Source: an uncultured Gammaproteobacteria bacterium
GTDB taxonomy: Bacteria; Patescibacteriota; Microgenomatia; UBA8517; JACQJR01
DNA: 64,000 nucleotides
Direction: 5' to 3'
Assembly: GCA_964442455.1 (NCBI GenBank)
Contig: CAYTZB010000002.1
Span: 11,159-75,158 of the forward strand
Under the pieces are notes generated by a model. That model worked only from the letters and a program-made list of their open reading frames with translations, was not told the origin of the DNA and did not search any database. The position numbers and the translations under genes were made by a program. This document shows, piece by piece, positions 9,611-52,286 of this stretch (its first letter is position 1; each line of letters begins with the position of its first letter).

Positions 9611-10381
9611 CTACCCTCCCCATTTTGAGCTCAAATACACGGCAAGAAGTACGACTAGCCCTACCAAAAGATACTCCTTCACTGTTCGCGCAAATAATCG
9701 GCCAACAAGTTCAGCTTGGAGAAACCCAAGGAGCACATACAGCACTGTCGTCAGAAAGAGTGATGCAACAACCACCGTCACCGGCCAGAGCGATATCATA
9801 AACCCAATCTCCCCCAAAACGGCGCTCACTACCGCAGACCACAGTATCAAGCGAGGGTTCACTCGCTCATCAAGCTCGATACTCCATACGCTCTGTAAAA
9901 CGAGTGGGAAGGAGAGAAGTAATGCACCTCCCCCATTAACCCAAGGAGCAAGCCGAAATGACCACACGGTATCAAACAAAAAGAAAGAAGTCGCGAGAGT
10001 CAATAAAAATCCAACTGCGTGAGCTGCTCGAAGAAGAGCAATCGTACGAATTGCGGCAACATTATAAATATTTGCAGTTAAAAGCAGCGCATACATCCCC
10101 AATCCATACAAGAATACAACAGGAAGCCGCGCCAGTAGTGCGCTCGGGAGCAAAAAGTAGAAAAACCCTACCCCCGCAGTAAATGCAACCGGCAAAACGA
10201 GCGTGAGGAGGGTGGCATTGCGACCGACTGTCTCTCGAAGTGACCAAAGTGAAAGAATGCCCGAGCCCACAACAACCGCCACAATCGCCTCATAGCGAAA
10301 CAGTACATCTGTTAATTGAATAATCAAGAAAGCTCCAGCTAAAATTATTGAAGTGAAAATAAATTTTCTTCTTTTAGACAT
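9611..10381 (-). CDS. hypothetical polytopic membrane protein
   Basis: 256 aa, six or more hydrophobic helices. No catalytic motif recognised. Confidence 0.5.
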   Translation of the reverse strand: MSKRRKFIFTSIILAGAFLIIQLTDVLFRYEAIVAVVVGSGILSLWSLRETVGRNATLLTLVLPVAFTAGVGFFYFLLPSALLARLPVVFLYGLGMYALLLTANIYNVAAIRTIALLRAAHAVGFLLTLATSFFLFDTVWSFRLAPWVNGGGALLLSFPLVLQSVWSIELDERVNPRLILWSAVVSAVLGEIGFMISLWPVTVVVASLFLTTVLYVLLGFLQAELVGRLFARTVKEYLLVGLVVLLAVYLSSKWGG

Positions 10382-22410: not shown

Positions 22411-22496
22411 GCCCGGGTGGCGGAATGGTTTACGCGCACGACTCAAAATCGTGTGGTCTTACGACCATGTGGGTTCGACTCCCGCTCCGGGCACCA
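22411..22496 (+). tRNA. tRNA-Leu (anticodon CAA), long variable arm, encoded CCA
   Basis: 7-bp acceptor stem GCCCGGG/UCCGGGC, anticodon stem CACGA/TCGTG with loop CTCAAAA, variable arm TGGTCTTACGACCA, T-arm GGGTTCGACTCCC, discriminator A followed by CCA. Confidence 0.85.
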
Positions 22497-22502
22497 GGAG
22501 AA

Positions 22503-23222
22503 ATGCCCAAACCCAAACTGCCGCTCAAAACCTTTTCATGGTCTCCTAACTTAGCTTATATTATTGGTCTCTTAGTTACAGATGGAAATCTCTCAAACGA
22601 TGGCAGACATATAATTATGCGATCTTCAGACAGAGACCTTCTTGAAACTTTCAATTCTTGTCTCGATTTAAAGAATAAAATTTCGGAAACAAAAAATAAT
22701 GGTTTCGCAAAACGACCAAGTTACAGAGTTCAATTTGGTAATATCCAATTCTATAAATGGCTAGTTAAAATAGGACTGGCACATAAGAAAACATATAATG
22801 TTGGGGAAATAAAAATTCCCGATAAATACTTTAGAGACTTTTTGAGAGGGCATCTAGATGGAGATGGTACAATTCTAACCTATGATGATAGGTATAATAA
22901 ATACCGAGGGAGAACATATGTAAATCTTAGGGTTTTCCTTTATTTTATTTCTGCAAGCCGTACTCACATTGACTGGCTTATAAGGAAAATCCGAGATCTT
23001 ACTAAAGTAAAAGGATCACTCACATGTAGTAAACCTGTAAAATCTAACCGAGTGCCTATGTGGAGGATAAAATTTTCAAAAAAAGAGGCTGTAAAAATAT
23101 TGCGATGGATGTATTATCAAGAAAATCTTCCTTGCTTGGAAAGAAAAAGAGAGCTCGTGAGGAAGATTTTTAACCTTGTAGTAAATGAAAAGAGGAGAAA
23201 GTATTCCAGAATTACAAGTTAA
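22503..23222 (+). CDS. LAGLIDADG-family homing endonuclease (two motifs)
   Basis: LAYIIGLLVTDGNL and FLRGHLDGDGTI motifs. The ATG at 22503 follows an AGGAG site, 7 nt after the tRNA 3' end. Confidence 0.8.
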   Translation: MPKPKLPLKTFSWSPNLAYIIGLLVTDGNLSNDGRHIIMRSSDRDLLETFNSCLDLKNKISETKNNGFAKRPSYRVQFGNIQFYKWLVKIGLAHKKTYNVGEIKIPDKYFRDFLRGHLDGDGTILTYDDRYNKYRGRTYVNLRVFLYFISASRTHIDWLIRKIRDLTKVKGSLTCSKPVKSNRVPMWRIKFSKKEAVKILRWMYYQENLPCLERKRELVRKIFNLVVNEKRRKYSRITS

Positions 23223-31451: not shown

Positions 31452-32618
31452 TTATTCCCCTGACTCAACAAGGGTTGTAGAAACTGTGAGGGCTTGACCA
31501 CCTGTCTGCGCAGGCAGGTCGCGCCACAATTCAATGCTCACTCTATCCCCAACTTTTCTCTTATTAATCAAGGAGGCCAAACCACCAGTCTCTTCTTTTA
31601 TCGCTTCTCCATCAAGTTTTGTCAAGATATCATTTTCCTCTATTCCCGCTGTCTTGGCAGGACTTCCTTCAACTACCTCAACGACATAAGCACCTTGAGG
31701 GACTTCATTCAAAATTGCTGCTTCACCACTTATCATCTGATAACGAACGCCTAAAAATGGACGTGAGAAACGACCGGTTTGCTCAAAGTTTTGGATTGAG
31801 TCCTTGACAATGTTTATTGGAATAGCAAATCCCACATTTTCCGCCCCAGCAGCCACCGCCACATTAACACCTATAACTTGTCCGGCTGAATTAAGAAGTG
31901 GCCCTCCCGAATTTCCCGGATTGATTGCCGCGTCTGTTTGAATAACATTATCCAAACGCTCAACGAACCCTTCAAAAGGCGTCCCCGCAGTAATTCCCCG
32001 TCCCAGCCCAGATATAACACCGGTTGTAACGGTGTGGCGGAATTCACCAAGTGCGGTACCGATTGCAATCACGAACTGTCCGACTTTAAGGTTACTTGAG
32101 TCGCCTAAATCAACAGGTTTTAGTCCTGAGGTGGCCGTTGGACTTACTTTAAGGATTGACAAGTCATTGGCCGGGTCCCGATAAATTTTTTCAACAACAA
32201 ATTCCTTATCATCTTTTGTAATCACCTTATATTGCACGCCTGATTCGGAAACCACATGTTTATTAGTAACAATAAGGCCGTCAACGGAAATAATAAACCC
32301 TGTCGCAATATCCTGTTTGCCTCCTTCCTCTCTTACTCCGAGTCCCCCAAAAGGAGAAAACTGAAGAACCTTTCTGCGGGGCGACTCCCGGGAAATGGTA
32401 ACAACCGACGGAGATACTCTTTCTGCAACATCAATCACTACCGATTCCTCGGTCAATATTTTTTGCTCTACCTCCCCGGTACGAAGACCCCCACTGCGAG
32501 GAAACAGTTTATCAAGGGGTTTAATACCAAATAAACGATCGGCAATCGCTCCTCCGAAAATGGAAGCAAGAACTACCACACCAACTGCAATACCTATTAG
32601 GAAACGACGGACTCTCAT
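31452..32618 (-). CDS. HtrA/DegP-family serine protease (trypsin domain + PDZ)
   Basis: GNSGGPLLNSAGQVIGVN active-site region, C-terminal PDZ domain, N-terminal TM segment. Confidence 0.9.
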   Translation of the reverse strand: MRVRRFLIGIAVGVVVLASIFGGAIADRLFGIKPLDKLFPRSGGLRTGEVEQKILTEESVVIDVAERVSPSVVTISRESPRRKVLQFSPFGGLGVREEGGKQDIATGFIISVDGLIVTNKHVVSESGVQYKVITKDDKEFVVEKIYRDPANDLSILKVSPTATSGLKPVDLGDSSNLKVGQFVIAIGTALGEFRHTVTTGVISGLGRGITAGTPFEGFVERLDNVIQTDAAINPGNSGGPLLNSAGQVIGVNVAVAAGAENVGFAIPINIVKDSIQNFEQTGRFSRPFLGVRYQMISGEAAILNEVPQGAYVVEVVEGSPAKTAGIEENDILTKLDGEAIKEETGGLASLINKRKVGDRVSIELWRDLPAQTGGQALTVSTTLVESGE

Positions 32619-32737: not shown

Positions 32738-33973
32738 TTATTTTACTAGCTCCTCAACCGCTCTTTGTAATTGTTCGTCTTCTTCAGTATCCGCTTTGTC
32801 TTCCACTTTTATATCCGGTTCAAGACCTTTCTCGTTTACCCAGGTTCCATTAGGGGTTAACCACCGAGCTGTTGTAATATGAAGTCCTGCTCCTCCCAGC
32901 AACTCCTGTGCCTCCTGGATTGTCCCTTTTCCAAACGTTGCCTCGCCTATCAGCTTTGCCCCTCTCAAATCGCGCAACGCTCCCGCGACAATTTCACTCG
33001 CCGAAGCCGACCCTTTGTTCATCAACACAACTGTAGGAAAGTTACTTAAGCGGCCTTTACCAGTTGCCGTAAAGTTTTGTCTATTCCCTTCTGCATTTTC
33101 TTGCATAACAATCGTTCCGCTCCTTACAAACTCCGACGCAAAGTATACTGCGCCATTTAAGAAACCCCCAGGGTTATTTCTAACATCAAGAATCACGCCT
33201 TTTATTCCTGGTTTTTTAAGAATCTCAGATACCTTCGTATCCCATTCCTTATTTGTACTTTCCCCAAAGCGCAGGAGCTTAAGATGAGCAAGAGACTCTC
33301 CTTCTCCTACAAATGAAAGCTCGACAGAGGGAACATCAATCTTTGCACGCATGACGTTAACTTCAAAAGGTTCGAGGACTCCTTCACGGCTTACCGTCAA
33401 TTTTACTTCCGTCCCCGCGGGACCACGTATAGCTTCAACAGCCGTCGGCAAATCAATTCCCACTGTCCCTTTCTCTATTCCTCTCTTTTCATCTTTTATA
33501 AACAAGATAAAATCGCCAGCTTTGAGACCTGCTTTTTGGGCCGGAGTCCCCTCAAGCGGCGCAATTACTGCAAGTTGTGTTCCACGAAATCCAATCTGAA
33601 TACCCACTCCTTCAAATGAGCCGGATAAATCTTCTACCGTCCTTTTTTGCTCACTTGGCGGCAAAAAGGTAGTGTAGGGATCGCCAGCTCCAGCAACCAT
33701 CCCTTTAATAGCCCCATAAATCAATGCGCGGTTGTCGAGTTTTTCTTTTTCTAGGTAGTCACGATGGAGTCTATCCCACACATCCCAAAAGAGGGAAAAT
33801 TGGAGCTCCTGTTTGCCGGGAGGCAGTTCTCTTGAAATGATTACTCTTGGTTTTGAGTCCTGGAAATTGATAGTCAATCCTGCCTGCCCGAGCCAATATC
33901 CGGCACCAAAGAACGCCACCGCACCAACCACAAAAAACAGAACTCGGCGAGCAATTGAGCGGCTAATCTTCAT
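32738..33973 (-). CDS. carboxyl-terminal processing peptidase (S41, CtpA-like)
   Basis: PDZ domain plus S41 catalytic region, GSASASEIVAGALRDLRGAKLIGEATFGKGTIQ. Confidence 0.88.
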   Translation of the reverse strand: MKISRSIARRVLFFVVGAVAFFGAGYWLGQAGLTINFQDSKPRVIISRELPPGKQELQFSLFWDVWDRLHRDYLEKEKLDNRALIYGAIKGMVAGAGDPYTTFLPPSEQKRTVEDLSGSFEGVGIQIGFRGTQLAVIAPLEGTPAQKAGLKAGDFILFIKDEKRGIEKGTVGIDLPTAVEAIRGPAGTEVKLTVSREGVLEPFEVNVMRAKIDVPSVELSFVGEGESLAHLKLLRFGESTNKEWDTKVSEILKKPGIKGVILDVRNNPGGFLNGAVYFASEFVRSGTIVMQENAEGNRQNFTATGKGRLSNFPTVVLMNKGSASASEIVAGALRDLRGAKLIGEATFGKGTIQEAQELLGGAGLHITTARWLTPNGTWVNEKGLEPDIKVEDKADTEEDEQLQRAVEELVK

Positions 33974-38957: not shown

Positions 38958-38988
38958 TTCAAGAAAACCGCGACCCGTAAGGTCGCGG
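38958..38988 (-). terminator. rho-independent terminator for the Cys-rich protein gene (stem CCGCGACC/GGTCGCGG, loop CGTAA, T-run on the minus strand)
   Basis: Perfect 8-bp stem at 38968-38988. The minus strand continues with TTTTCTT. Confidence 0.5.
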
Positions 38989-39098: not shown

Positions 39099-40730
39099 TT
39101 AAAATTCCAGCCAATCTAAAATAATCTGGAGTAAACCCCGAGCAGTGCTTACCCCTTGCACTCCTGATGGAGGAGCTTGTGGTTGAGATTGCTGTTGCTG
39201 GGGCTGTTGATTTTGTTGATATTGCTGCTGTCCTTGCTCTCCAGAAGATCCACCTCCGCCATATTGTCCAACGTATGGAGCGCAGGCTGAATCTTTAGGG
39301 TTTGACTTACAATAAGATGTACAGGAAGCCTCATCCGTACATCCTCCGGGACCAGAAAATCCTCCTCCATATTGTCCAGCGTATTTAGCACATTCACTAT
39401 CCTTCGGATTACTTTTACAATACGATGTACATGAAGCTTCATCGCTACAACCACCGGGCCCGGAAATTCCTCCACCATATTGACTTGCCATCTGTTTACA
39501 AGCTTCATCTTGGGAATTGGCTGTGCAGTAGGCTTTACATGAGCTTTCCGAATTACAACCACCGGGCCCGGAAACCCCACCACCATACTGGCTTGAGTAT
39601 TTTTGACATTCAGAATCTTGAGAGTGTTCTTTACAATAGGCAGTACACGAACCAACGTCACTACACCCGCCCGGCCCGCTGAATCCGCCATATTGACCGC
39701 TATATTGTTTGCATTCTGCATCAGAAGGATTGGCCCGACAATAAGCTTCACAGGAACTTTCATCCTCACACCCCCCAGGCCCTTTAAAGCCTTCGTATTT
39801 ACTACTATACTTTTTACACTCCGGGTCAGAAGAGTTTTGTTTGCAGTAAGCACTACACGAGGCAATATCACTACATCCTCCAGGACCTTGGAAATCTACT
39901 TCTATTTCCTGATCATCTGCATAGTTTAAGCAGACTCTTTGATTATATGGTTGACTGCAGAAAGCTTGGCATTCTTGCTCTGTTTTACATCCTCCAGGAC
40001 CGGTTGAACCATACTGTCTGGCCAGCTCTGCCTCCTCTTCTGTAATAAATCCTAATGCTAAAGCCATATCAAGACACTCCTCCGAGTGTCCGGGGTCAGC
40101 ACAATACGCTTCACATGCTGTCTTCGAATCACACCCGCCAGCACTCTTGCCACTTCTAATAAGATCAACAAATCTTTGAGCTTCAGGTGATAGTTCTAAA
40201 GGTATACCAATTTGTTCTTGCCACGTTAAGCACTCTTGCCAGTTTCCTTCTAAAGAACAATAGATTTCACATTCATTCTCGCCGCGGCAATTCCCAGGGG
40301 GCAGTATGGCATCCTCCCCTTTCATACCGGCTGCTACTTGGCGAGCTTTTTGCAACTCATCAGGTGTTGCAAACCCGTTTTCTTCAGCAAAATCCAAACA
40401 CTGGTCTAGATTGGCATAATCATTACAAAATACCTCTACTGAACAACCCTCATCAGTTCTGCACCATCCAGGTCCTCCGGTTGTAGCCAGCTGGGTAAAT
40501 CTTTCTGCTCTATCAAGCTCTTCTTGAGTTACAAGGTTGTGTTCTTTGGCAAAGGGAAAACAGGGTGACATTTTATTTTCTGGTATATCACAGAAAGCCC
40601 GACACTCTGCTTCATCTTCACATCCTCCAAGCTCTGCCACAGGAAAAGTAATATCATCTCCTGATGAAGCATATACCATTCCGATTGTTAGGAAAAACAT
40701 AATAAAGGGCAGGAAAAGTAATTGTTTCAT
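39099..40730 (-). CDS. secreted cysteine-rich tandem-repeat protein (about 11 four-Cys modules, poly-Q tail)
   Basis: Signal peptide MKQLLFLPFIMFFLTIGMVYA. Six near-identical ~33-aa repeats GPGGC(S/T)DE(A/S)SC(T/E)AYC(K)xNxxDxEC(K)xYxxQYGGGxS, plus five degenerate N-terminal modules. C-terminal QQQYQQNQQPQQQQSQPQ. Confidence 0.7.
   Translation of the reverse strand: MKQLLFLPFIMFFLTIGMVYASSGDDITFPVAELGGCEDEAECRAFCDIPENKMSPCFPFAKEHNLVTQEELDRAERFTQLATTGGPGWCRTDEGCSVEVFCNDYANLDQCLDFAEENGFATPDELQKARQVAAGMKGEDAILPPGNCRGENECEIYCSLEGNWQECLTWQEQIGIPLELSPEAQRFVDLIRSGKSAGGCDSKTACEAYCADPGHSEECLDMALALGFITEEEAELARQYGSTGPGGCKTEQECQAFCSQPYNQRVCLNYADDQEIEVDFQGPGGCSDIASCSAYCKQNSSDPECKKYSSKYEGFKGPGGCEDESSCEAYCRANPSDAECKQYSGQYGGFSGPGGCSDVGSCTAYCKEHSQDSECQKYSSQYGGGVSGPGGCNSESSCKAYCTANSQDEACKQMASQYGGGISGPGGCSDEASCTSYCKSNPKDSECAKYAGQYGGGFSGPGGCTDEASCTSYCKSNPKDSACAPYVGQYGGGGSSGEQGQQQYQQNQQPQQQQSQPQAPPSGVQGVSTARGLLQIILDWLEF
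39290..39925 (-). repeat. ~100-nt coding tandem repeats (six copies) inside the Cys-rich gene
   Basis: The repeats generate several spurious overlapping ORFs in other frames (39149-39871, 39425-39682, 39603-39929). Confidence 0.65.
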
Positions 40731-40975
40731 TTTGTTTCTCGAAATGGATTTGGATAAATATCTTTGAATGGATTAGTCTTTGCCTGAAATACATCAACTT
40801 CAGGTAGCTTATTTTTTATGGGGTTTTGAGCTTCTTTGAATATCTGCTCTCCCAAAGATGGTTGCCTCATTTTTGTATTCCAGTACCAAAAACCAAAAAG
40901 CCCTGCAAGAACAAGAAGTACGAGAAGAATCGGAACAACAGTTCCTCTTTGAGAAGTCAGATTTCTCTGGGGCAT
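40727..40975 (-). CDS. small hypothetical membrane protein (82 aa)
   Basis: Single TM helix. Overlaps the start of the Cys-rich gene by 4 nt, suggesting co-transcription. Confidence 0.4.
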   Translation of the reverse strand: MPQRNLTSQRGTVVPILLVLLVLAGLFGFWYWNTKMRQPSLGEQIFKEAQNPIKNKLPEVDVFQAKTNPFKDIYPNPFRETK

Positions 40976-41110
40976 TAATTAATTATTGCTCTCCAAAATT
41001 AAGGTTGTCAAGTCAAAGTGGTACGGGGCAGGTTCTAAATGTGGGATAGCGTAACTTGAATTCCGCACAGATAACGACATGAAGATATTCTATTAGAGAT
41101 TTTAGAAAAG

Positions 41111-43983: not shown

Positions 43984-44931
43984 TTAACTGACTACATTCT
44001 GAGGTTTTCCTTTGAGAAAACCTTCTATATTACCAATGAAGATTTCTTGCTTAGCTATCCTCGCCTCATCTGAAATATAACCAATAGGCGGATACAATAT
44101 ACAATTTTTATACTTTGATAATTTCTTAGCATCTTTCGGATCTAATTCATCCGAATGATCTGATATAAATGTTATGTCTCCCTTTTTTAATCTTTCTTCT
44201 AACGCATCTAAATCTGTTATCTCGTTCGGAACTGTACTGATAATCAAAGCTCTTGGTTTAATACTATTTATCCTTTTTTTATTTAAGAAATGTTTAGTTT
44301 CCGGAGTTTCAGCCAAGTGAAGAGAAATAATATCTGCCTTTGAAATCAACTCATCTACATTTTGATACTTAATACCAGCTTTTTCTAAATCTTTTTTCCT
44401 ATGCTCTGACCAATATCTCACATCTGCCCCAAAACCTTTCGCAATTTCTGCTACTCTACTCCCAATTCTTCCTAAACCAATTATCCCAAATAATTTATCC
44501 TTTATTTCTGTGGCTTTAAATTCTGCTTCTGAATAATTACCCTTACGTGCTTGTTCCTTTGCTTTTGTTATCTCTCTTATTTTTTCTAAAAGTACCGCAA
44601 AAACAAATTCTGCAACTGATTCTGTAGCATAGCCCGGAACATTTGAGACAATTATTTTTTTCTTTTTTGCATAGCCAACATCAACTTTTCCATACGCCGT
44701 TGCCAAAACACCAACAAATTTTAAATGAGGGGCTCTATCTATTTCTTTTTTACCAACATCAATTTGAAATCCTGTTAATATACAGTCCGTATCAGATAAT
44801 TCTCTTGAGATTTGAAGACTATCTTTTGGCAAAAATACCTTTTTCTCAATTATTGCATCAAGCTTTTGCCAATACTTTTTATCAAGGCTTGGGGTAGTAA
44901 TATTAATAAAGAGTACTTTCTTAAATTTCAT
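43984..44931 (-). CDS. D-isomer-specific 2-hydroxyacid dehydrogenase
   Basis: GIIGLGRIGSRVAEIAKGFGADV NAD-binding motif. Start trimmed to MKFKKVLF. Confidence 0.85.
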   Translation of the reverse strand: MKFKKVLFINITTPSLDKKYWQKLDAIIEKKVFLPKDSLQISRELSDTDCILTGFQIDVGKKEIDRAPHLKFVGVLATAYGKVDVGYAKKKKIIVSNVPGYATESVAEFVFAVLLEKIREITKAKEQARKGNYSEAEFKATEIKDKLFGIIGLGRIGSRVAEIAKGFGADVRYWSEHRKKDLEKAGIKYQNVDELISKADIISLHLAETPETKHFLNKKRINSIKPRALIISTVPNEITDLDALEERLKKGDITFISDHSDELDPKDAKKLSKYKNCILYPPIGYISDEARIAKQEIFIGNIEGFLKGKPQNVVS

Positions 44932-44981
44932 AATCAAGCACATTCTACTCCTTTAAGGAAAGGATTGCCAGAGATATGAGG

Positions 44982-46176: not shown

Positions 46177-46644
46177 CTAATTTAATAATACTATTGCTAC
46201 GTTTAAAACAGAAGCAAAGCTGACCCACAAGATATACGGAACCAACAAATATGCTGCCAATTTTGAAATTGGATAAAAGTATTTAATTGTCAAAAATATC
46301 GTTATCCATAAAGCTACTATCTCAATAAACGCTAAAGTTGGATTTTTAAGTCCAAAAAATAAAATGGACCATAATGCATTCAGTCCTAATTGGATAAAAA
46401 ATAAAGTAAGTACTTTTTGTTTAATTTTACTTTTGGAAACCCACACAAAGTAAAGCGATATTCCCATTAAAATATAAAGCGTTGTCCATACAGGGGCAAA
46501 AACCCAATTAGGAGGAGAAAAGATGGGTTTATTTAATGTTGCATACCAGGTGGGAATTGCGGAAACTGTAAAAAATGAACCAATGAAACCTGCCCCCAAG
46601 CAAACTCCAATTGACAGAAGCAGTTGTGGAATTTTAACGGACAT
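46177..46644 (-). CDS. tspO: TspO/MBR tryptophan-rich sensory protein
   Basis: Five TM helices, with WYATLNKPIFSPPNWVFAPVWTTLYILMGIS. Confidence 0.85.
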   Translation of the reverse strand: MSVKIPQLLLSIGVCLGAGFIGSFFTVSAIPTWYATLNKPIFSPPNWVFAPVWTTLYILMGISLYFVWVSKSKIKQKVLTLFFIQLGLNALWSILFFGLKNPTLAFIEIVALWITIFLTIKYFYPISKLAAYLLVPYILWVSFASVLNVAIVLLN

Positions 46645-51014: not shown

Positions 51015-52286
51015 CTACTCATTTATTACTTTGTACACCACCCCTGCCTTGTCGTCTGAGATATATAAGCTTCCTTCTTTGTCAAAAATTAAATCCACTG
51101 GGCGACCTAAAGTCTGTGAACCTTGCAAGAAATCGGTAATAAAATCCTCCTCACCGCGCACCGTATTTCCCTCAACATCAAGTCGCACCACTTTATACCC
51201 AATTGGTGTTGAGCGATTCCAAGAACCATGATACGAAACTAATAAATCTCCCTGCCATTCTTTTGGAAATTGCGATGAGTTAATAAGCGAAGCTTGTTCC
51301 TCTCTGACGCTCGGAATAAACGTTAATCCCAACGGCGCTGAGTGGGCAGGGATTTCATAAACTGGCGGCTCGGTAGTCCCACAAGGCAGCTGAGGAATAA
51401 TTTGGATATAAGCTCTTTTATCAAAATCTGTATCGTGTACCCTGGTGCCGTAACAAACTGGCCAGCCGTAATCTTTTCCATCTTTAATAATATTTACCTC
51501 GTCAGGTGGCAAGTTGTCCCCCAACCAGTCCCGTCCCATTTCTGTTCCCCATAATTCACCGGTCTGGGGGTTGACTGTTATAAACACACTATTGCGTAGC
51601 CCTTTCGCCCACACTCTAGGACTCGTACCATCCTCATCGGAAACAATAACGCCTGCCAACCACTCGTGTTTTTCAAAACAGACGTCACAGGTTGAACCAA
51701 TGGAAACAAACATCTGACCGACTTGCCCTGAGCGCCTGTCCTGAGTTTGACCGAAGGATGCCGAGGGGTTAAATGAAATAGAGCGGGTGAAATGCCTTCC
51801 GCCTTTTGGCAGAGAAAAAAGCACCTTGTCTTTGGTTGCTGTTAAGTTTTCTTCATCCCATTTATATCGCACCACTTGTGTCTCCTCAGCCACGAAAAGC
51901 TTTCCATTGTAAAACGCTAATCCATGAGGTCTCTCCAAATTTGTTAAAACATCAATTACACTATCCGCAACTCCATTCCCATCTCTATCCGGCAATGCAA
52001 CCACTCGACCATCTGCTGGAATAGATAAAAGTAACGTGCCGCGAGATGTAAATTCTAGATCCCTTGCGTTCCCAAGGTTTTTGGCAAAAATTCCAATTTG
52101 AAATCCTTGAGGAAGTTTAAGAGGAAAACTTGGGGTGTCACCAACCGATGGTATATTCGATACACCCGTAATACTCTCGCGCGGAGGCAACAACGCAGGC
52201 CTCACATCCCCCACTCTTTGTCGTACAATCCATATTCCACCCAAAAACAAGCCAATGATTATTGCCGCAATAATAATATTCCTCAT
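51015..52286 (-). CDS. PQQ-dependent soluble sugar/aldose dehydrogenase (YliI/SGL-type β-propeller)
   Basis: Signal/TM segment followed by glucose/sorbosone dehydrogenase propeller motifs (...GRPVDLIFDKEGSLYISDDKAGVVYKV). Confidence 0.8.
   Translation of the reverse strand: MRNIIIAAIIIGLFLGGIWIVRQRVGDVRPALLPPRESITGVSNIPSVGDTPSFPLKLPQGFQIGIFAKNLGNARDLEFTSRGTLLLSIPADGRVVALPDRDGNGVADSVIDVLTNLERPHGLAFYNGKLFVAEETQVVRYKWDEENLTATKDKVLFSLPKGGRHFTRSISFNPSASFGQTQDRRSGQVGQMFVSIGSTCDVCFEKHEWLAGVIVSDEDGTSPRVWAKGLRNSVFITVNPQTGELWGTEMGRDWLGDNLPPDEVNIIKDGKDYGWPVCYGTRVHDTDFDKRAYIQIIPQLPCGTTEPPVYEIPAHSAPLGLTFIPSVREEQASLINSSQFPKEWQGDLLVSYHGSWNRSTPIGYKVVRLDVEGNTVRGEEDFITDFLQGSQTLGRPVDLIFDKEGSLYISDDKAGVVYKVINE

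What the first reader, a model, noticed from the sequence alone, without database searches (positions are those of the whole stretch)
39099..40730. Secreted protein built from about 11 four-cysteine modules with six near-identical ~33-aa tandem repeats and a poly-Q tail
The 543-aa product has a signal peptide and then repeated modules of the form G-P-G-G-C-x-(D/E)-E-x-x-C-x-A-Y-C-x-x-N-x-x-D-x-E-C-x-x-Y-x-x-Q-Y-G-G-G-x-S. Six copies are nearly identical at protein level, corresponding to DNA tandem repeats of about 100 nt at 39290-39925. Five more divergent copies lie N-terminal (for example GPGWCRTDEGCSVEVFCNDYANLDQCLDFAEENG). The protein ends in a Gln-rich low-complexity tail (QQQYQQNQQPQQQQSQPQ). 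Each module carries four Cys with conserved spacing (C-x5-C-x3-C-x8-C), suggesting a small disulfide- or metal-stabilised domain that I cannot assign to a known family. A 4-nt overlap with an 82-aa membrane protein gene at 40727-40975 suggests co-transcription. It may be a surface adhesin or host-interaction protein; repeat number is likely variable.
Basis: seen in the sequence. Interest (0 to 1): 0.7.

Follow-up and report, generated by a model that had tools for sequence, protein, structure and literature searches.

The report
CPR four-cysteine repeat protein and partner
This is a real secreted protein made of eleven small helical modules, each with four invariant cysteines, always encoded next to a tiny membrane protein; the pair is uncharacterised, belongs to no curated family, and in this search turned up only in the ultra-small "CPR/Patescibacteria" bacteria.

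Summary
The ORF is real: minus strand, 39099-40730, 543 aa. It has 44 Cys arranged as 11 modules with the spacing C-x5-C-x3-C-x8-C. By chance 0.09 such patterns are expected in the whole window. The six C-terminal modules are not near-identical: they are 35-36 aa long, 51-89% identical as protein and 52-74% as DNA.

The family is large: 1,911 clusters at 50% identity, all multi-module. Every hit that carries a credible organism name is CPR, and all are "hypothetical".

The main new result is the partner gene. The 82-aa upstream gene has an N-terminal TM segment and a C-terminal tail ...NPFxxxYxNPF. It sits directly upstream of the four-Cys gene in 37 of 37 loci, including a reciprocal test, while other neighbours change. 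A promoter-like site and a terminator-like hairpin bracket the pair.

Short-module number varies among close relatives (3-6 copies).

Best reading (confidence 0.45): a Cys-stapled, acidic beads-on-a-string surface protein that works with the small membrane partner. Still open are disulfide versus Cys4-metal stabilisation, and scaffold versus adhesin role.

Verdict: a new domain and a new gene pair of a familiar general kind. Interest 0.5.

The parts
40982..41011 (-). Sigma-70-like promoter TTGACA-18-AATAAT (11 of 12 positions). It ends 6 nt before the ATG of the small gene, which suggests a leaderless or near-leaderless transcript.
   Evidence: Consensus scan; sequence. This is a consensus match only and was not tested. 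The region holds 6 such sites against 5.3 expected, though this is the only 11/12 match.
40727..40975 (-). Small partner gene of 82 aa: a short basic N-terminus, one TM segment, a linker, then a conserved C-terminal tail QNPxxxKLPExxxFxxxTNPFKDIYPNPF near the C-terminus.
   Evidence: ORF. A homologous small ORF lies directly upstream of the four-Cys gene in 33/33 loci, and 4/4 in the reciprocal test. Alignment A5 has invariant N51, N68, N76-P77-F78. A profile search found 309 hits, all 72-133 aa. No Pfam, NCBIfam or PHROGs family matched.
40889..40942 (-). Predicted transmembrane segment of the small protein (aa 12-29, TVVPILLVLLVLAGLFGF).
   Evidence: Kyte-Doolittle 18-residue window maximum of 2.69. 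A hydrophobic segment sits at the same place in all 20 aligned homologues. Topology was not determined.
40742..40828 (-). NPx/NPF-repeat tail of the small protein (aa 50-78).
   Evidence: This is the only strongly conserved part of the small protein across Microgenomates and Parcubacteria lineages.
39099..40730 (-). Four-cysteine repeat protein gene: 543 aa plus stop. The mature protein is about 55 kDa with pI 4.2.
   Evidence: More than 1,107 homologues were found by the word-index search and 1,911 clusters at 50% identity by the module profile.
40668..40730 (-). Signal peptide (aa 1-21, likely cleaved after V-Y-A).
   Evidence: Read from the sequence. The region is only 5-36% identical in all but the closest relative, while the following DITFPVAELGGC motif is conserved. 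No predictor was run.
39891..40637 (-). Five long modules (aa 32-84, 85-142, 143-194, 195-242, 243-280). Each has a (G)PGxC turn and C-x5-C-x3-C-x8-C within a helical hairpin. Modules 1-4 add a third helix; module 5 is shorter and has only two.
   Evidence: Module table. AlphaFold2 pLDDT is mostly 80-95 with three helices per module for modules 1-4. The consensus was built from 548 long modules.
39249..39890 (-). Six short modules of 35-36 aa each (aa 281-494). They have the same four-Cys core and two helices, lack the third helix, and are joined by QYGG(F/G)SGPGG linkers.
   Evidence: 51-89% aa and 52-74% nt identity. (two helices each, pLDDT 55-85). Copy number among close relatives is 3-6.
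39177..39248 (-). Q-rich low-complexity linker (aa 495-518), predicted disordered.
   Evidence: Sequence. pLDDT is about 30-39 from residue 490 on. Its length differs even between otherwise identical proteins (P0374 versus the window) and it is absent in P0001.
39102..39137 (-). C-terminal amphipathic helix GLLQIILDWLEF (aa 532-543).
   Evidence: Predicted helix 533-540, low confidence. Similar tails occur in both Microgenomates and Parcubacteria homologues, but only in about 9 of 22 distinct loci. In L012 it is cut off by an in-frame TAA.
38968..38988 (-). Intrinsic-terminator-like hairpin (9-bp stem, 7 G-C pairs, then a T run), 111 nt after the stop codon.
   Evidence: Consensus scan. Not tested.

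Best explanation
The finding is one half of a two-gene cassette that this search found only in CPR/Patescibacteria.

Gene 1 (40727-40975) encodes an 82-aa single-pass membrane protein. Its only conserved part is a C-terminal tail of NPx/NPF repeats that ends ...NPFxxxYxNPF close to the C-terminus.

Gene 2 (39099-40730) encodes a Sec-exported, very acidic protein built as beads on a string. It consists of eleven copies of a small helical module that no curated family describes. Each module has four invariant cysteines: C1 in a GPGG turn, C2 and C3 one helical turn apart in helix 1, and C4 in helix 2.

Most likely (inferred) the four cysteines form two intramodule disulfides. These would staple each mini-domain so that it is stable outside the cell. 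The chain of modules would then form an elongated surface-exposed scaffold or spacer, held at the cell surface through the small membrane partner. The NPF tail may dock onto the conserved N-terminal modules. In some lineages the C-terminal amphipathic helix may add a second attachment.

The array of short modules and the Q-rich linker expand and contract quickly in evolution, which changes the protein's length.

Shown: gene structure, module anatomy, family size, absence from curated families, helical prediction, strict gene pairing, and copy-number variation.
Inferred: export, disulfides, physical interaction of the two proteins, and the scaffold role.
For: - Module regularity: 44 Cys in 11 modules. 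Of 1,011 modules in 121 proteins, 912 have exactly C-x5-C-x3-C-x8-C. Of 2,093 modules in 254 proteins, 2,054 keep all four Cys.
- Selection on the Cys: the other 44 ORFs checked in the window hold only 60 Cys in total, against 44 in this one protein.
- Fold: AlphaFold2 predicts helical modules with pLDDT mostly 80-95 in the long modules. pTM is 0.45, which fits modules that do not pack into one rigid body.
- Export: signal-peptide-like N-terminus. Extracellular-type domains (Laminin_G_3, Kazal) are fused in some members.
- Partner gene: a small TM+NPF gene lies directly upstream on the same strand (gap -20 to +39 nt) in 33/33 loci found through the Cys protein and 4/4 loci found through the small protein, while other neighbours differ. 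Locus tags are adjacent in NCBI records.
- Transcription unit: a promoter-like site before gene 1 and a terminator-like hairpin after gene 2.
- Old duplications under purifying selection: the last two modules are 89% identical as protein but 74% as DNA.
- Copy-number change among close relatives.
- Background: CPR genomes are reported to be enriched in DsbA/MdbA-like oxidoreductases next to VKOR, the machinery for extracytoplasmic disulfides (bioRxiv 10.1101/335083).
Against: - No coordinates of the model were available, so Cys-Cys geometry and disulfide connectivity could not be checked.
- No Dsb or VKOR gene was found in the parts of the window that were scanned.
- Among 2,093 modules there is no case of paired Cys loss, which is the usual signature of disulfide pairs. 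Three single-Cys losses remain after excluding alignment truncations and one register shift: C1 in one lineage of five proteins, C2 in one protein and C3 in one protein. This fits a four-ligand site at least as well as two disulfides.
- The topology of the small protein is ambiguous from flanking charges. If its tail is cytoplasmic it cannot bind the secreted protein.
- The C-terminal helix is missing in more than half of the loci, so it cannot be a general anchor.
- No experiment or complex prediction links the two proteins physically.
Confidence: 0.45

Rival explanations
1. Each module is a Cys4 metal site (Zn, Fe or another thiophilic metal) rather than a disulfide-stapled unit. The protein would then be an extracellular metal-binding, metal-buffering or redox-active array with up to 11 sites per chain.
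For: - Four strictly invariant Cys per module, with no paired losses and only single losses.
- Predicted geometry: C2 and C3 on one face of helix 1 (i, i+4), C4 on the facing helix 2, and C1 in a Gly-rich turn just before helix 1. This could bring four thiolates together (secondary structure; the convergence is inference).
- A conserved H/N lies four residues before C4.
- The MAG names point to groundwater. From general knowledge such habitats are often anoxic, where extracellular disulfides are less favoured.
Against: - There are no CxxC knuckles of the kind typical of Cys4 zinc sites.
- The Cys are flanked by acidic residues (EEC...EEC), which is unfavourable for anionic thiolate-metal centres.
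- The Sec-type signal peptide implies export unfolded, so metal would have to be acquired outside the cell.
- No metal transporter or chaperone is a conserved neighbour.
- The module profile found no sequence relative among solved structures, metal-binding or otherwise.
Confidence: 0.2
2. This is the first reader's reading: a surface adhesin or host-interaction protein of an episymbiotic bacterium. The variable repeat array would contact the host cell, and copy-number change would serve adaptation or antigenic variation.
For: - Copy number of short modules and the length of the Q-rich tract differ among close relatives.
- Some family members carry Laminin_G_3 (lectin-like) or Kazal domains.
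- From general knowledge, CPR bacteria are largely episymbionts.
- In one locus the pair lies next to type IV pilus genes.
Against: - The N-terminal modules and the first motif (DITFPVAELGxC) are conserved from Microgenomates to Parcubacteria. That is unexpected for a ligand-binding surface tracking diverse hosts.
- The repeats are 52-74% identical at DNA level, so they are not a hyper-recombining contingency locus.
- Only one such gene is in the window.
- The strictly conserved small partner suggests a conserved self-interaction.
- The pilus neighbourhood is not conserved.
Confidence: 0.2
3. The small upstream ORF is not a structural partner. It would be a regulatory leader or translation-arrest peptide of the MifM/SecM/ApcA type. 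Its N-terminal TM segment would sense membrane insertion, and its conserved C-terminal sequence would stall the ribosome to control translation of the four-Cys gene.
For: - It has the shared anatomy of known arrest peptides: small, an N-terminal TM, a conserved motif at the extreme C-terminus, and a position immediately upstream of the regulated gene. About 50 residues separate the TM from the C-terminus.
- The conserved tail is about 28 aa long. From general knowledge that is near the length of the ribosomal exit tunnel.
Against: - There is no RAPP/RGPP, SecM-like or MifM-like motif.
- The conserved element is a 3-5-fold NPx repeat, which looks more like a binding motif.
- The junction RNA shows no significant structure that could mask the downstream start (z = -1.25).
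- The start/stop spacing varies from -20 to +39 nt, and with ATGA overlap a stalled ribosome would block rather than expose the downstream start.
Confidence: 0.12
4. The protein is a multi-headed secreted protease inhibitor, with each Cys-rich module acting as one inhibitory head.
For: - Tandem small Cys-rich modules are the usual architecture of multi-headed inhibitors (general knowledge).
- Kazal domains are fused to, or encoded near, some family members.
Against: - The modules are predicted as compact helical units with no exposed canonical binding loop.
- No inhibitor family matches by sequence or fold.
- Kazal fusion is rare in the family.
Confidence: 0.04

Closest known systems
Helicobacter cysteine-rich proteins (HcpB, HcpC; Sel1-like repeat family)
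   Same: Both are secreted bacterial proteins built from tandem short helical repeats. In the Hcp family, conserved cysteines cross-link the repeats by disulfides and stabilise the array (PMC3851747). This is the best functional analogy for 'Cys-stapled helical repeats outside the cell'.
   Different: - No Sel1 Pfam match.
- Two Cys per 36-aa repeat in Hcp, against four per 35-58-aa module here.
Disulfide-stapled helical hairpins (twin CX3C / CX9C CHCH proteins, plant alpha-hairpinins)
   Same: These are small helix-turn-helix units in which Cys on facing helices are expected to form two disulfides. A CX3C pair within one helix is present here too (C2-x3-C3). This comparison rests on my own knowledge of these families.
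   Different: - Those families have two symmetric CX3C or CX9C motifs, one per helix. Here the pattern is the asymmetric C-x5-C-x3-C-x8-C, with C1 outside the helices.
- They are single-domain eukaryotic proteins, not tandem bacterial arrays.
- No sequence or fold match was obtained.
Monitoring or arrest peptides with an N-terminal TM segment (MifM, SecM, ApcA/ApdA; PMC12992588)
   Same: This applies to the 82-aa gene only. It is small, has an N-terminal TM segment and a conserved extreme C-terminal motif, and is encoded immediately upstream of, or overlapping, the next gene.
   Different: There is no RAPP-like or other known arrest motif. The conserved element is a repeated NPF motif. No regulatory RNA structure was found at the junction. 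The downstream gene is not a component of the localisation machinery.
LPXTG sortase substrates
   Same: The small protein contains [LIMVF]-P-[EQD]-[TVLS]-[ND] (for example LPETN, or LPEVD in the window), which resembles LPXTG. From general knowledge, CPR genomes commonly encode sortases; one locus has a sortase fragment nearby.
   Different: The T is not invariant and G is replaced by N or D. The motif is not followed by a hydrophobic segment and a basic tail. The only TM segment is N-terminal. The large protein has no LPXTG at all.

Membership tests
Sel1-like repeat / Hcp family | Match to the Sel1 repeat profile (Pfam PF08238) | tested here: not met
   The Pfam scan of the window protein at E up to 10 returned no family. 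None of the 17 homologues scanned matched Sel1 either.
Sel1-like repeat / Hcp family | Alpha/alpha repeats packed into a continuous superhelix similar to HcpB/HcpC | tested here: not met
Sel1-like repeat / Hcp family | Disulfide bridges linking the repeats | not testable with these tools
   Model coordinates cannot be read, and no biochemistry is available.
Knottin / defensin-like (including Pfam AtDEF-like PF25052) | Profile match and a beta-rich, disulfide-knotted fold with six or more Cys | tested here: not met
   The window protein has no hit. Two of the eight homologues scanned reach AtDEF-like just above its cutoff (29 and 25.5 bits against 25). That match covers the signal peptide plus module 1 only. 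The predicted structure is all-helical.
Kazal-type inhibitor domain | Kazal_1 / Kazal_2 profile match (six-Cys pattern) | tested here: not met
   No hit in the window protein. In P0043 and P0141 the Kazal match lies in a separate extra domain outside the four-Cys modules.
Cys4 zinc-ribbon or zinc-finger type domains | Two CxxC (or CxxH) knuckles, and a profile or structure match | tested here: not met
Twin CX3C / CX9C (CHCH) helical hairpins | Two CX3C or two CX9C motifs, one on each helix of a hairpin | tested here: not met
   There is one CX3C per module, and C1 and C4 are single. No Pfam CHCH hit.
LPXTG sortase-anchored surface proteins | C-terminal LPXTG, then a hydrophobic segment and a positively charged tail | tested here: not met
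   The large protein ends ...GLLQIILDWLEF with no LPXTG. The LPETN-like motif of the small protein lacks the invariant T and G and has no downstream TM segment.
Translation-arrest (monitoring) peptides | Small ORF with an N-terminal localisation signal, encoded directly upstream of the regulated gene | tested here: met
   The ORF is 82 aa, has an N-terminal TM segment, and overlaps the downstream gene by 4 nt.
Translation-arrest (monitoring) peptides | Known arrest motif (RAPP/RGPP, SecM FxxxxWIxxxxGIRAGP, MifM) near the C-terminus | tested here: not met
   None of these motifs is present in alignment A5. The conserved tail is NPF-based. The motifs are as listed in PMC12992588.
Translation-arrest (monitoring) peptides | Ribosome stalling that remodels an mRNA structure masking the downstream start | tested here: inconclusive
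   The junction RNA fold has z = -1.25, which is not significant. Stalling itself cannot be tested in silico.

The most novel reading that the evidence does not exclude
The small NPF-tailed membrane protein and the four-Cys module array form a new, CPR-specific two-component surface system. The helical four-Cys module would be a new peptide-recognition domain that binds the C-terminal NPF tail. The resulting membrane-tethered rod, whose length is set by module number, would be a core part of the unusual CPR cell envelope or of the apparatus that attaches these cells to hosts.
Probability: 0.2. Interest if true: 0.75.

Novelty: new variant of a known kind. Interest (0 to 1): 0.5.

Why it matters
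CPR/Patescibacteria are a very large share of bacterial diversity. They are mostly uncultivated and live attached to other cells, and little is known about their cell surface.

This finding gives a concrete, widespread and easily recognised gene pair: 1,911 clusters at 50% identity for the large protein, strictly linked to a small membrane partner in every locus examined. No curated family or paper found here describes it.

It offers three things. First, a new domain definition (C-x5-C-x3-C-x8-C helical module) and a new small-protein family (TM plus NPF tail), which could be added to family databases. Second, a testable protein-protein pairing. Third, a candidate envelope or attachment component to target in the few cultivable CPR-host systems.

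If it proves to be only a structural filler, the value is mainly better annotation.

Tried and rejected
- Known-family assignment. Pfam, NCBIfam and PHROGs scans of both proteins returned nothing usable. The only line was cytochrome Cgr1 for the small protein at E = 0.094 and 12 bits against a cutoff of 340.
- Pfam hits in homologues. AtDEF-like, AcrIC5, SPP1_GP23-1 and DUF2680 score at or just above their cutoffs. They cover a signal peptide or one helix and were rejected as spurious.
- PDB by sequence (phmmer and module profile): nothing, best E = 0.25.
- afdb50 fold search: the library was not available.
- Scan of genome contigs with the broad alignment A2 failed because it had no conserved stretch. 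It was repeated with the narrower alignment A3.
- Single-sequence search for the small protein found only 7 close relatives because of the word-index limit. A profile search was needed.
- Exact look-up of the window protein's contig: not on record. An identical protein (P0378) nevertheless appeared in a cluster listing.
- Disulfide connectivity from patterns of Cys loss: too few losses, none paired, so inconclusive.
- Dsb/VKOR genes in the window: none among the 22 window proteins scanned against Pfam.
- RNA switch at the gene junction: not significant.
- Assembly artefact: rejected.
- Literature. Six full-text searches found no description of this family. The nearest is an unnamed 'secreted cysteine-rich protein' mentioned next to a CRISPR locus in Roizmanbacteria (PMC6509639).
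Full report
**1. What is in the sequence**

The window holds a 543-aa ATG ORF at 39099-40730, on the minus strand.

Its product has 44 cysteines. They fall into 11 groups of four. Nine groups have exactly the spacing C-x5-C-x3-C-x8-C. Module 1 has nine residues in the last gap, and module 2 is C-x5-C-x5-C-x8-C.

A six-frame scan of all 64 kb finds nine exact matches to this pattern. All nine lie in this ORF, and 0.09 are expected from the cysteine frequency.

The rest of the window is cysteine-poor. The other 44 ORFs checked contain 60 Cys in total, against 44 in this one protein.

The N-terminus (MKQLLFLPFIMFFLTIGMVYA|SS) has the shape of a Sec signal peptide. Among all but the closest relative it is only 5-36% identical, while the sequence just after it (DITFPVAELGGC) is conserved. 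No signal-peptide predictor was available.

**2.

|---|---|---|
| Repeats of about 33 aa | 35-36 aa (105-108 nt) | 25 |
| Located at 39290-39925 | Located at 39249-39890 | 25 |
| Near-identical copies | 51-89% protein identity, 52-74% DNA identity | 25 |
| Protein ends in poly-Q | Q-rich stretch is aa 495-518, followed by APPSGVQGVSTAR and GLLQIILDWLEF | 7, 39 |

- Tandem Repeats Finder reports only 2.1 copies at 77%.
- The closest pair of modules (10 and 11) is 89% identical as protein but only 74% as DNA. This indicates old duplications kept by purifying selection.
- It also rules out assembly collapse or expansion. An identical 543-aa protein (P0378) and a 542-aa protein that differs only in the poly-Q tract (P0374, MBI2405814.1, 'Candidatus Microgenomates bacterium') are recorded on other NCBI contigs.
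- The five N-terminal modules are longer (38-58 aa) and only 11-34% identical to one another.
- The final GLLQIILDWLEF segment is predicted to be a helix at 533-540, with low confidence.

**3. The family**

A search of 5.8 billion proteins returned more than 1,107 hits. Every hit that carries a name is 'hypothetical protein'. The named organisms are Daviesbacteria, Levybacteria, Wildermuthbacteria, Wolfebacteria, Sungbacteria, Yanofskybacteria, Paceibacterales, and Parcubacteria and Patescibacteria group bacteria. Genome-contig titles add Microgenomates, Roizmanbacteria and Harrisonbacteria.

A profile built from 126 single modules hit 1,911 clusters at 50% identity among 1.84 billion representatives. 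Of these, 1,643 have E of 1e-10 or better. The 150 best hits listed each contain 6-13 modules.

The pattern is very regular. Of 1,011 modules in 121 proteins, 912 have the exact spacing. Of 2,093 modules in 254 proteins, 2,054 retain all four Cys.

The canonical module, best seen in Parcubacteria, is about 48-54 aa: xGPGGC-[RK][GS]KEEC-[ED]AYC-xxxx[HN]xxEC-[LI]DFAExxG[LF][MI]xxEEAxxA[RK]K. In the window protein and its relatives, five or six such long modules are followed by three to six short modules. The short modules lack the last helix.

**4. No known family or fold**

- Pfam, NCBIfam and PHROGs give no hit for the window protein.
- PDB sequences give none either, with phmmer or with the module profile.
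- Occasional Pfam hits in homologues (AtDEF-like, AcrIC5, SPP1_GP23-1, DUF2680) score at or just above their cutoffs. They cover a signal peptide or a single helix, and I regard them as spurious.
- Real extra domains occur in some long members: Laminin_G_3 in four and Kazal in two.

AlphaFold2 was run on the whole protein with a 63-sequence alignment. Mean pLDDT is 73 and pTM is 0.45.

- The long modules have pLDDT mostly 80-95. Modules 1-4 have three helices each; module 5 has two.
- The short modules have pLDDT 55-85 and two helices each.
- Residues 489-543 all have pLDDT below 50, although DSSP assigns a short final helix there.

A single module (aa 192-243), modelled with 126 module sequences, gives pLDDT 81.6 and helices at 12-19, 22-35 and 40-49. 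C1 lies in the turn before helix 1, C2 and C3 lie in helix 1, and C4 lies in helix 2.

So the module is a small helical unit, not a knottin.

Fold searches found nothing specific:

| Search | Best result |
|---|---|
| Foldseek vs PDB, full model | E = 0.74 |

The top matches are generic helical or TPR-like fragments. The afdb50 library was unavailable.

**5. The partner gene: the main new result**

The 82-aa ORF at 40727-40975 overlaps the start of the large gene by 4 nt (ATGA).

I first fetched five homologous loci from different CPR lineages. Each had a gene of 80-105 aa directly upstream, while the other neighbours differed.

I then scripted the check over the loci in hand.

- All 33 loci that contain a four-Cys ORF have an upstream small ORF on the same strand. 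It is 74-105 aa, the gap is -20 to +39 nt, and it has an N-terminal hydrophobic segment and C-terminal NPx/NPF repeats. In two loci the ORF starts with a non-ATG codon.
- These 33 loci include several duplicate copies of the same place. About 22 are distinct.

The alignment of 20 small proteins shows almost no conservation except the tail QNPxxxK[LI]PE[TV]NPFxKVNPFKx[VI]YxNPF, which lies 0-4 residues from the C-terminus. N51, N68 and N76-P77-F78 are invariant.

A profile of this alignment finds 309 proteins, all 72-133 aa. All named ones are from CPR, and some have locus tags adjacent to four-Cys proteins: HZB04_01245/01250 and A3D64_02805/02800.

The reciprocal test also holds. Four small-protein hits on long contigs each have a four-Cys protein with 5-7 modules immediately downstream. 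That makes 37 of 37 loci paired.

In the window, a TTGACA-18-AATAAT site (11 of 12 positions) ends 6 nt before the small gene's ATG. A hairpin with a 9-bp stem, 7 G-C pairs and a T run follows the large gene's stop codon. These are consensus matches only, but they fit a two-gene transcript.

The small protein matches no Pfam family above threshold.

**6. Variation**

Relatives share the same five long modules with the same spacing and differ in the number of short modules, from 3 to 6.

- P0001 is 95% identical over the long modules but lacks one short module and the whole Q-rich tract.
- P0379 and P0382 lack two to three short modules.
- P0374 differs from the window protein only by one residue and one substitution within the poly-Q.

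Variation within a population could not be tested.

The C-terminal amphipathic helix occurs in both Microgenomates and Parcubacteria members, but only in about 9 of 22 distinct loci. In L012 an in-frame TAA precedes a decayed remnant of it. It is therefore ancestral but dispensable.

**7. How it most likely works**

*Shown:*
- a two-gene unit;
- an exported-looking, very acidic protein (mature pI 4.2, 79 acidic against 34 basic residues) made of many small helical four-Cys units joined by Gly-rich linkers;
- a small membrane protein whose conserved part is a C-terminal NPF-repeat tail;
- strict linkage of the two genes.

*Inferred:*
- Each module is stabilised by its four Cys.
- The array is an elongated surface protein.
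- It acts together with the small membrane protein. The most economical idea is that the NPF tail docks on the conserved N-terminal modules and so tethers the array to the membrane.

I favour two disulfides per module. The protein is exported, the Cys are flanked by acidic residues, and CPR genomes are reported to be enriched in DsbA/MdbA-like proteins next to VKOR (bioRxiv 10.1101/335083).

The evidence is not decisive, for three reasons. No Dsb or VKOR gene was found in the parts of the window scanned. Model coordinates could not be inspected. The few Cys losses in the family are single, never paired, which suits a four-ligand metal site at least as well.

The topology of the small protein is also unresolved.

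**8. Rivals**

- (a) A Cys4 metal-binding array.
Copy-number variation and the Laminin_G_3 and Kazal fusions favour it. The deep conservation of the N-terminal modules and of the partner gene counts against it.
- (c) The small ORF is a translation-arrest leader like MifM or ApcA (PMC12992588). It shares their anatomy. It has no known arrest motif, and the junction RNA shows no significant structure (z = -1.25).
- (d) A multi-headed protease inhibitor. This is unlikely for compact helical units.

**9. Comparison with known systems**

The best analogy is the Helicobacter cysteine-rich (Hcp) Sel1-like repeat proteins. They are secreted helical repeats cross-linked by disulfides (PMC3851747). Membership fails on both the profile and the fold tests.

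The Cys pattern recalls twin-CX3C and alpha-hairpinin hairpins, but it is asymmetric and no match was obtained.

The LPETN-like motif in the small protein resembles LPXTG but fails the defining features of a sortase signal.

**10. Verdict**

This is a real, well-conserved protein family and gene pair that no curated family or paper found here describes. Six full-text searches turned up only an unnamed 'secreted cysteine-rich protein' in Roizmanbacteria (PMC6509639).

It is a new module and a new pairing within a familiar general kind, namely secreted Cys-stabilised repeat proteins. I rate it as a new variant of a known kind, with interest 0.5.

Its value is as a defined, testable candidate for a CPR-specific surface component.

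Noticed in passing
window, whole (ORFs listed): The encoded proteome is very cysteine-poor. The other 44 ORFs checked hold 60 Cys in total, and 23 of them have none. The four-Cys protein alone has 44.
   Followed up: partly
L012:5450-5520 (just after the stop of the four-Cys gene): In this 82%-identical relative, an in-frame TAA ends the protein inside the Q-rich tract. It is followed in frame by VAPPTVQGVSTARGLVVFNS*, a decayed remnant of the C-terminal helix region. This could be a recent nonsense mutation or a sequencing error. Many other family members also end within the Q-rich tract and have no tail.
   Followed up: partly
L005-L007 7681-10352; L036 5521-6654; L038 5576-7249: In several Parcubacteria loci the pair is followed by a DUF5671 membrane protein and/or a DUF5667 protein (with Kazal domains in L005-L007). 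It is preceded by PGI and a 2-hydroxyacid dehydrogenase. The window also has a 2-hydroxyacid dehydrogenase 3 kb upstream (43984-44943). This may be a remnant of a larger ancestral cluster.
   Followed up: no
window 32738-33973 and 31452-32618; L010 7652-8887: An S41 C-terminal-processing peptidase (PDZ domain) lies directly downstream of the four-Cys gene in L010/L011, and about 5 kb away in the window, next to an HtrA-like trypsin-PDZ protease. Such proteases recognise hydrophobic C-termini like GLLQIILDWLEF. This may be coincidence.
   Followed up: no
window 40975-41011: The -10 element of the best promoter-like site ends 6 nt before the ATG of the small gene, with no room for a Shine-Dalgarno sequence. 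This suggests a leaderless mRNA.
   Followed up: no
L012, L013, L015, L021, L023 (record titles): Several 'binchicken' MAG records are titled 'uncultured Gammaproteobacteria bacterium' (others 'uncultured Candidatus Saccharibacteria bacterium'). They carry genes 44-82% identical to this Microgenomates protein. L013 encodes the same protein as a Daviesbacteria assembly (L003). These taxonomic labels look like placeholders and should not be trusted.
   Followed up: partly
window 39149-39871 (-): A 240-aa GTG ORF lies in another frame of the same strand, inside the repeat region. It is most likely a by-product of the repetitive composition. No evidence was sought that it is a gene.
   Followed up: no
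window 22411-22496 (+): tRNA-Leu(CAA) is the only RNA gene detected in the window. The mechanically listed ORF 22425-23222 starts inside it, so that ORF's true start is probably further downstream.
   Followed up: no
P0025, P0028, P0029, P0035, P0059 (module near aa 185-240): In one lineage of five related proteins, C1 of a single module is replaced by Ala or Leu (PGGA.SK.EC..YC...EC). This leaves an odd number of Cys. It is the only recurrent Cys loss seen in 2,093 modules.
   Followed up: partly
window 46177-46644 (-), 51015-52286 (-), 9611-10381 (-): Other annotated neighbours are a TspO/MBR family membrane protein, a membrane-anchored glucose/sorbosone dehydrogenase-like beta-propeller, and a DUF5656 protein. 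None is linked to the finding.
   Followed up: no
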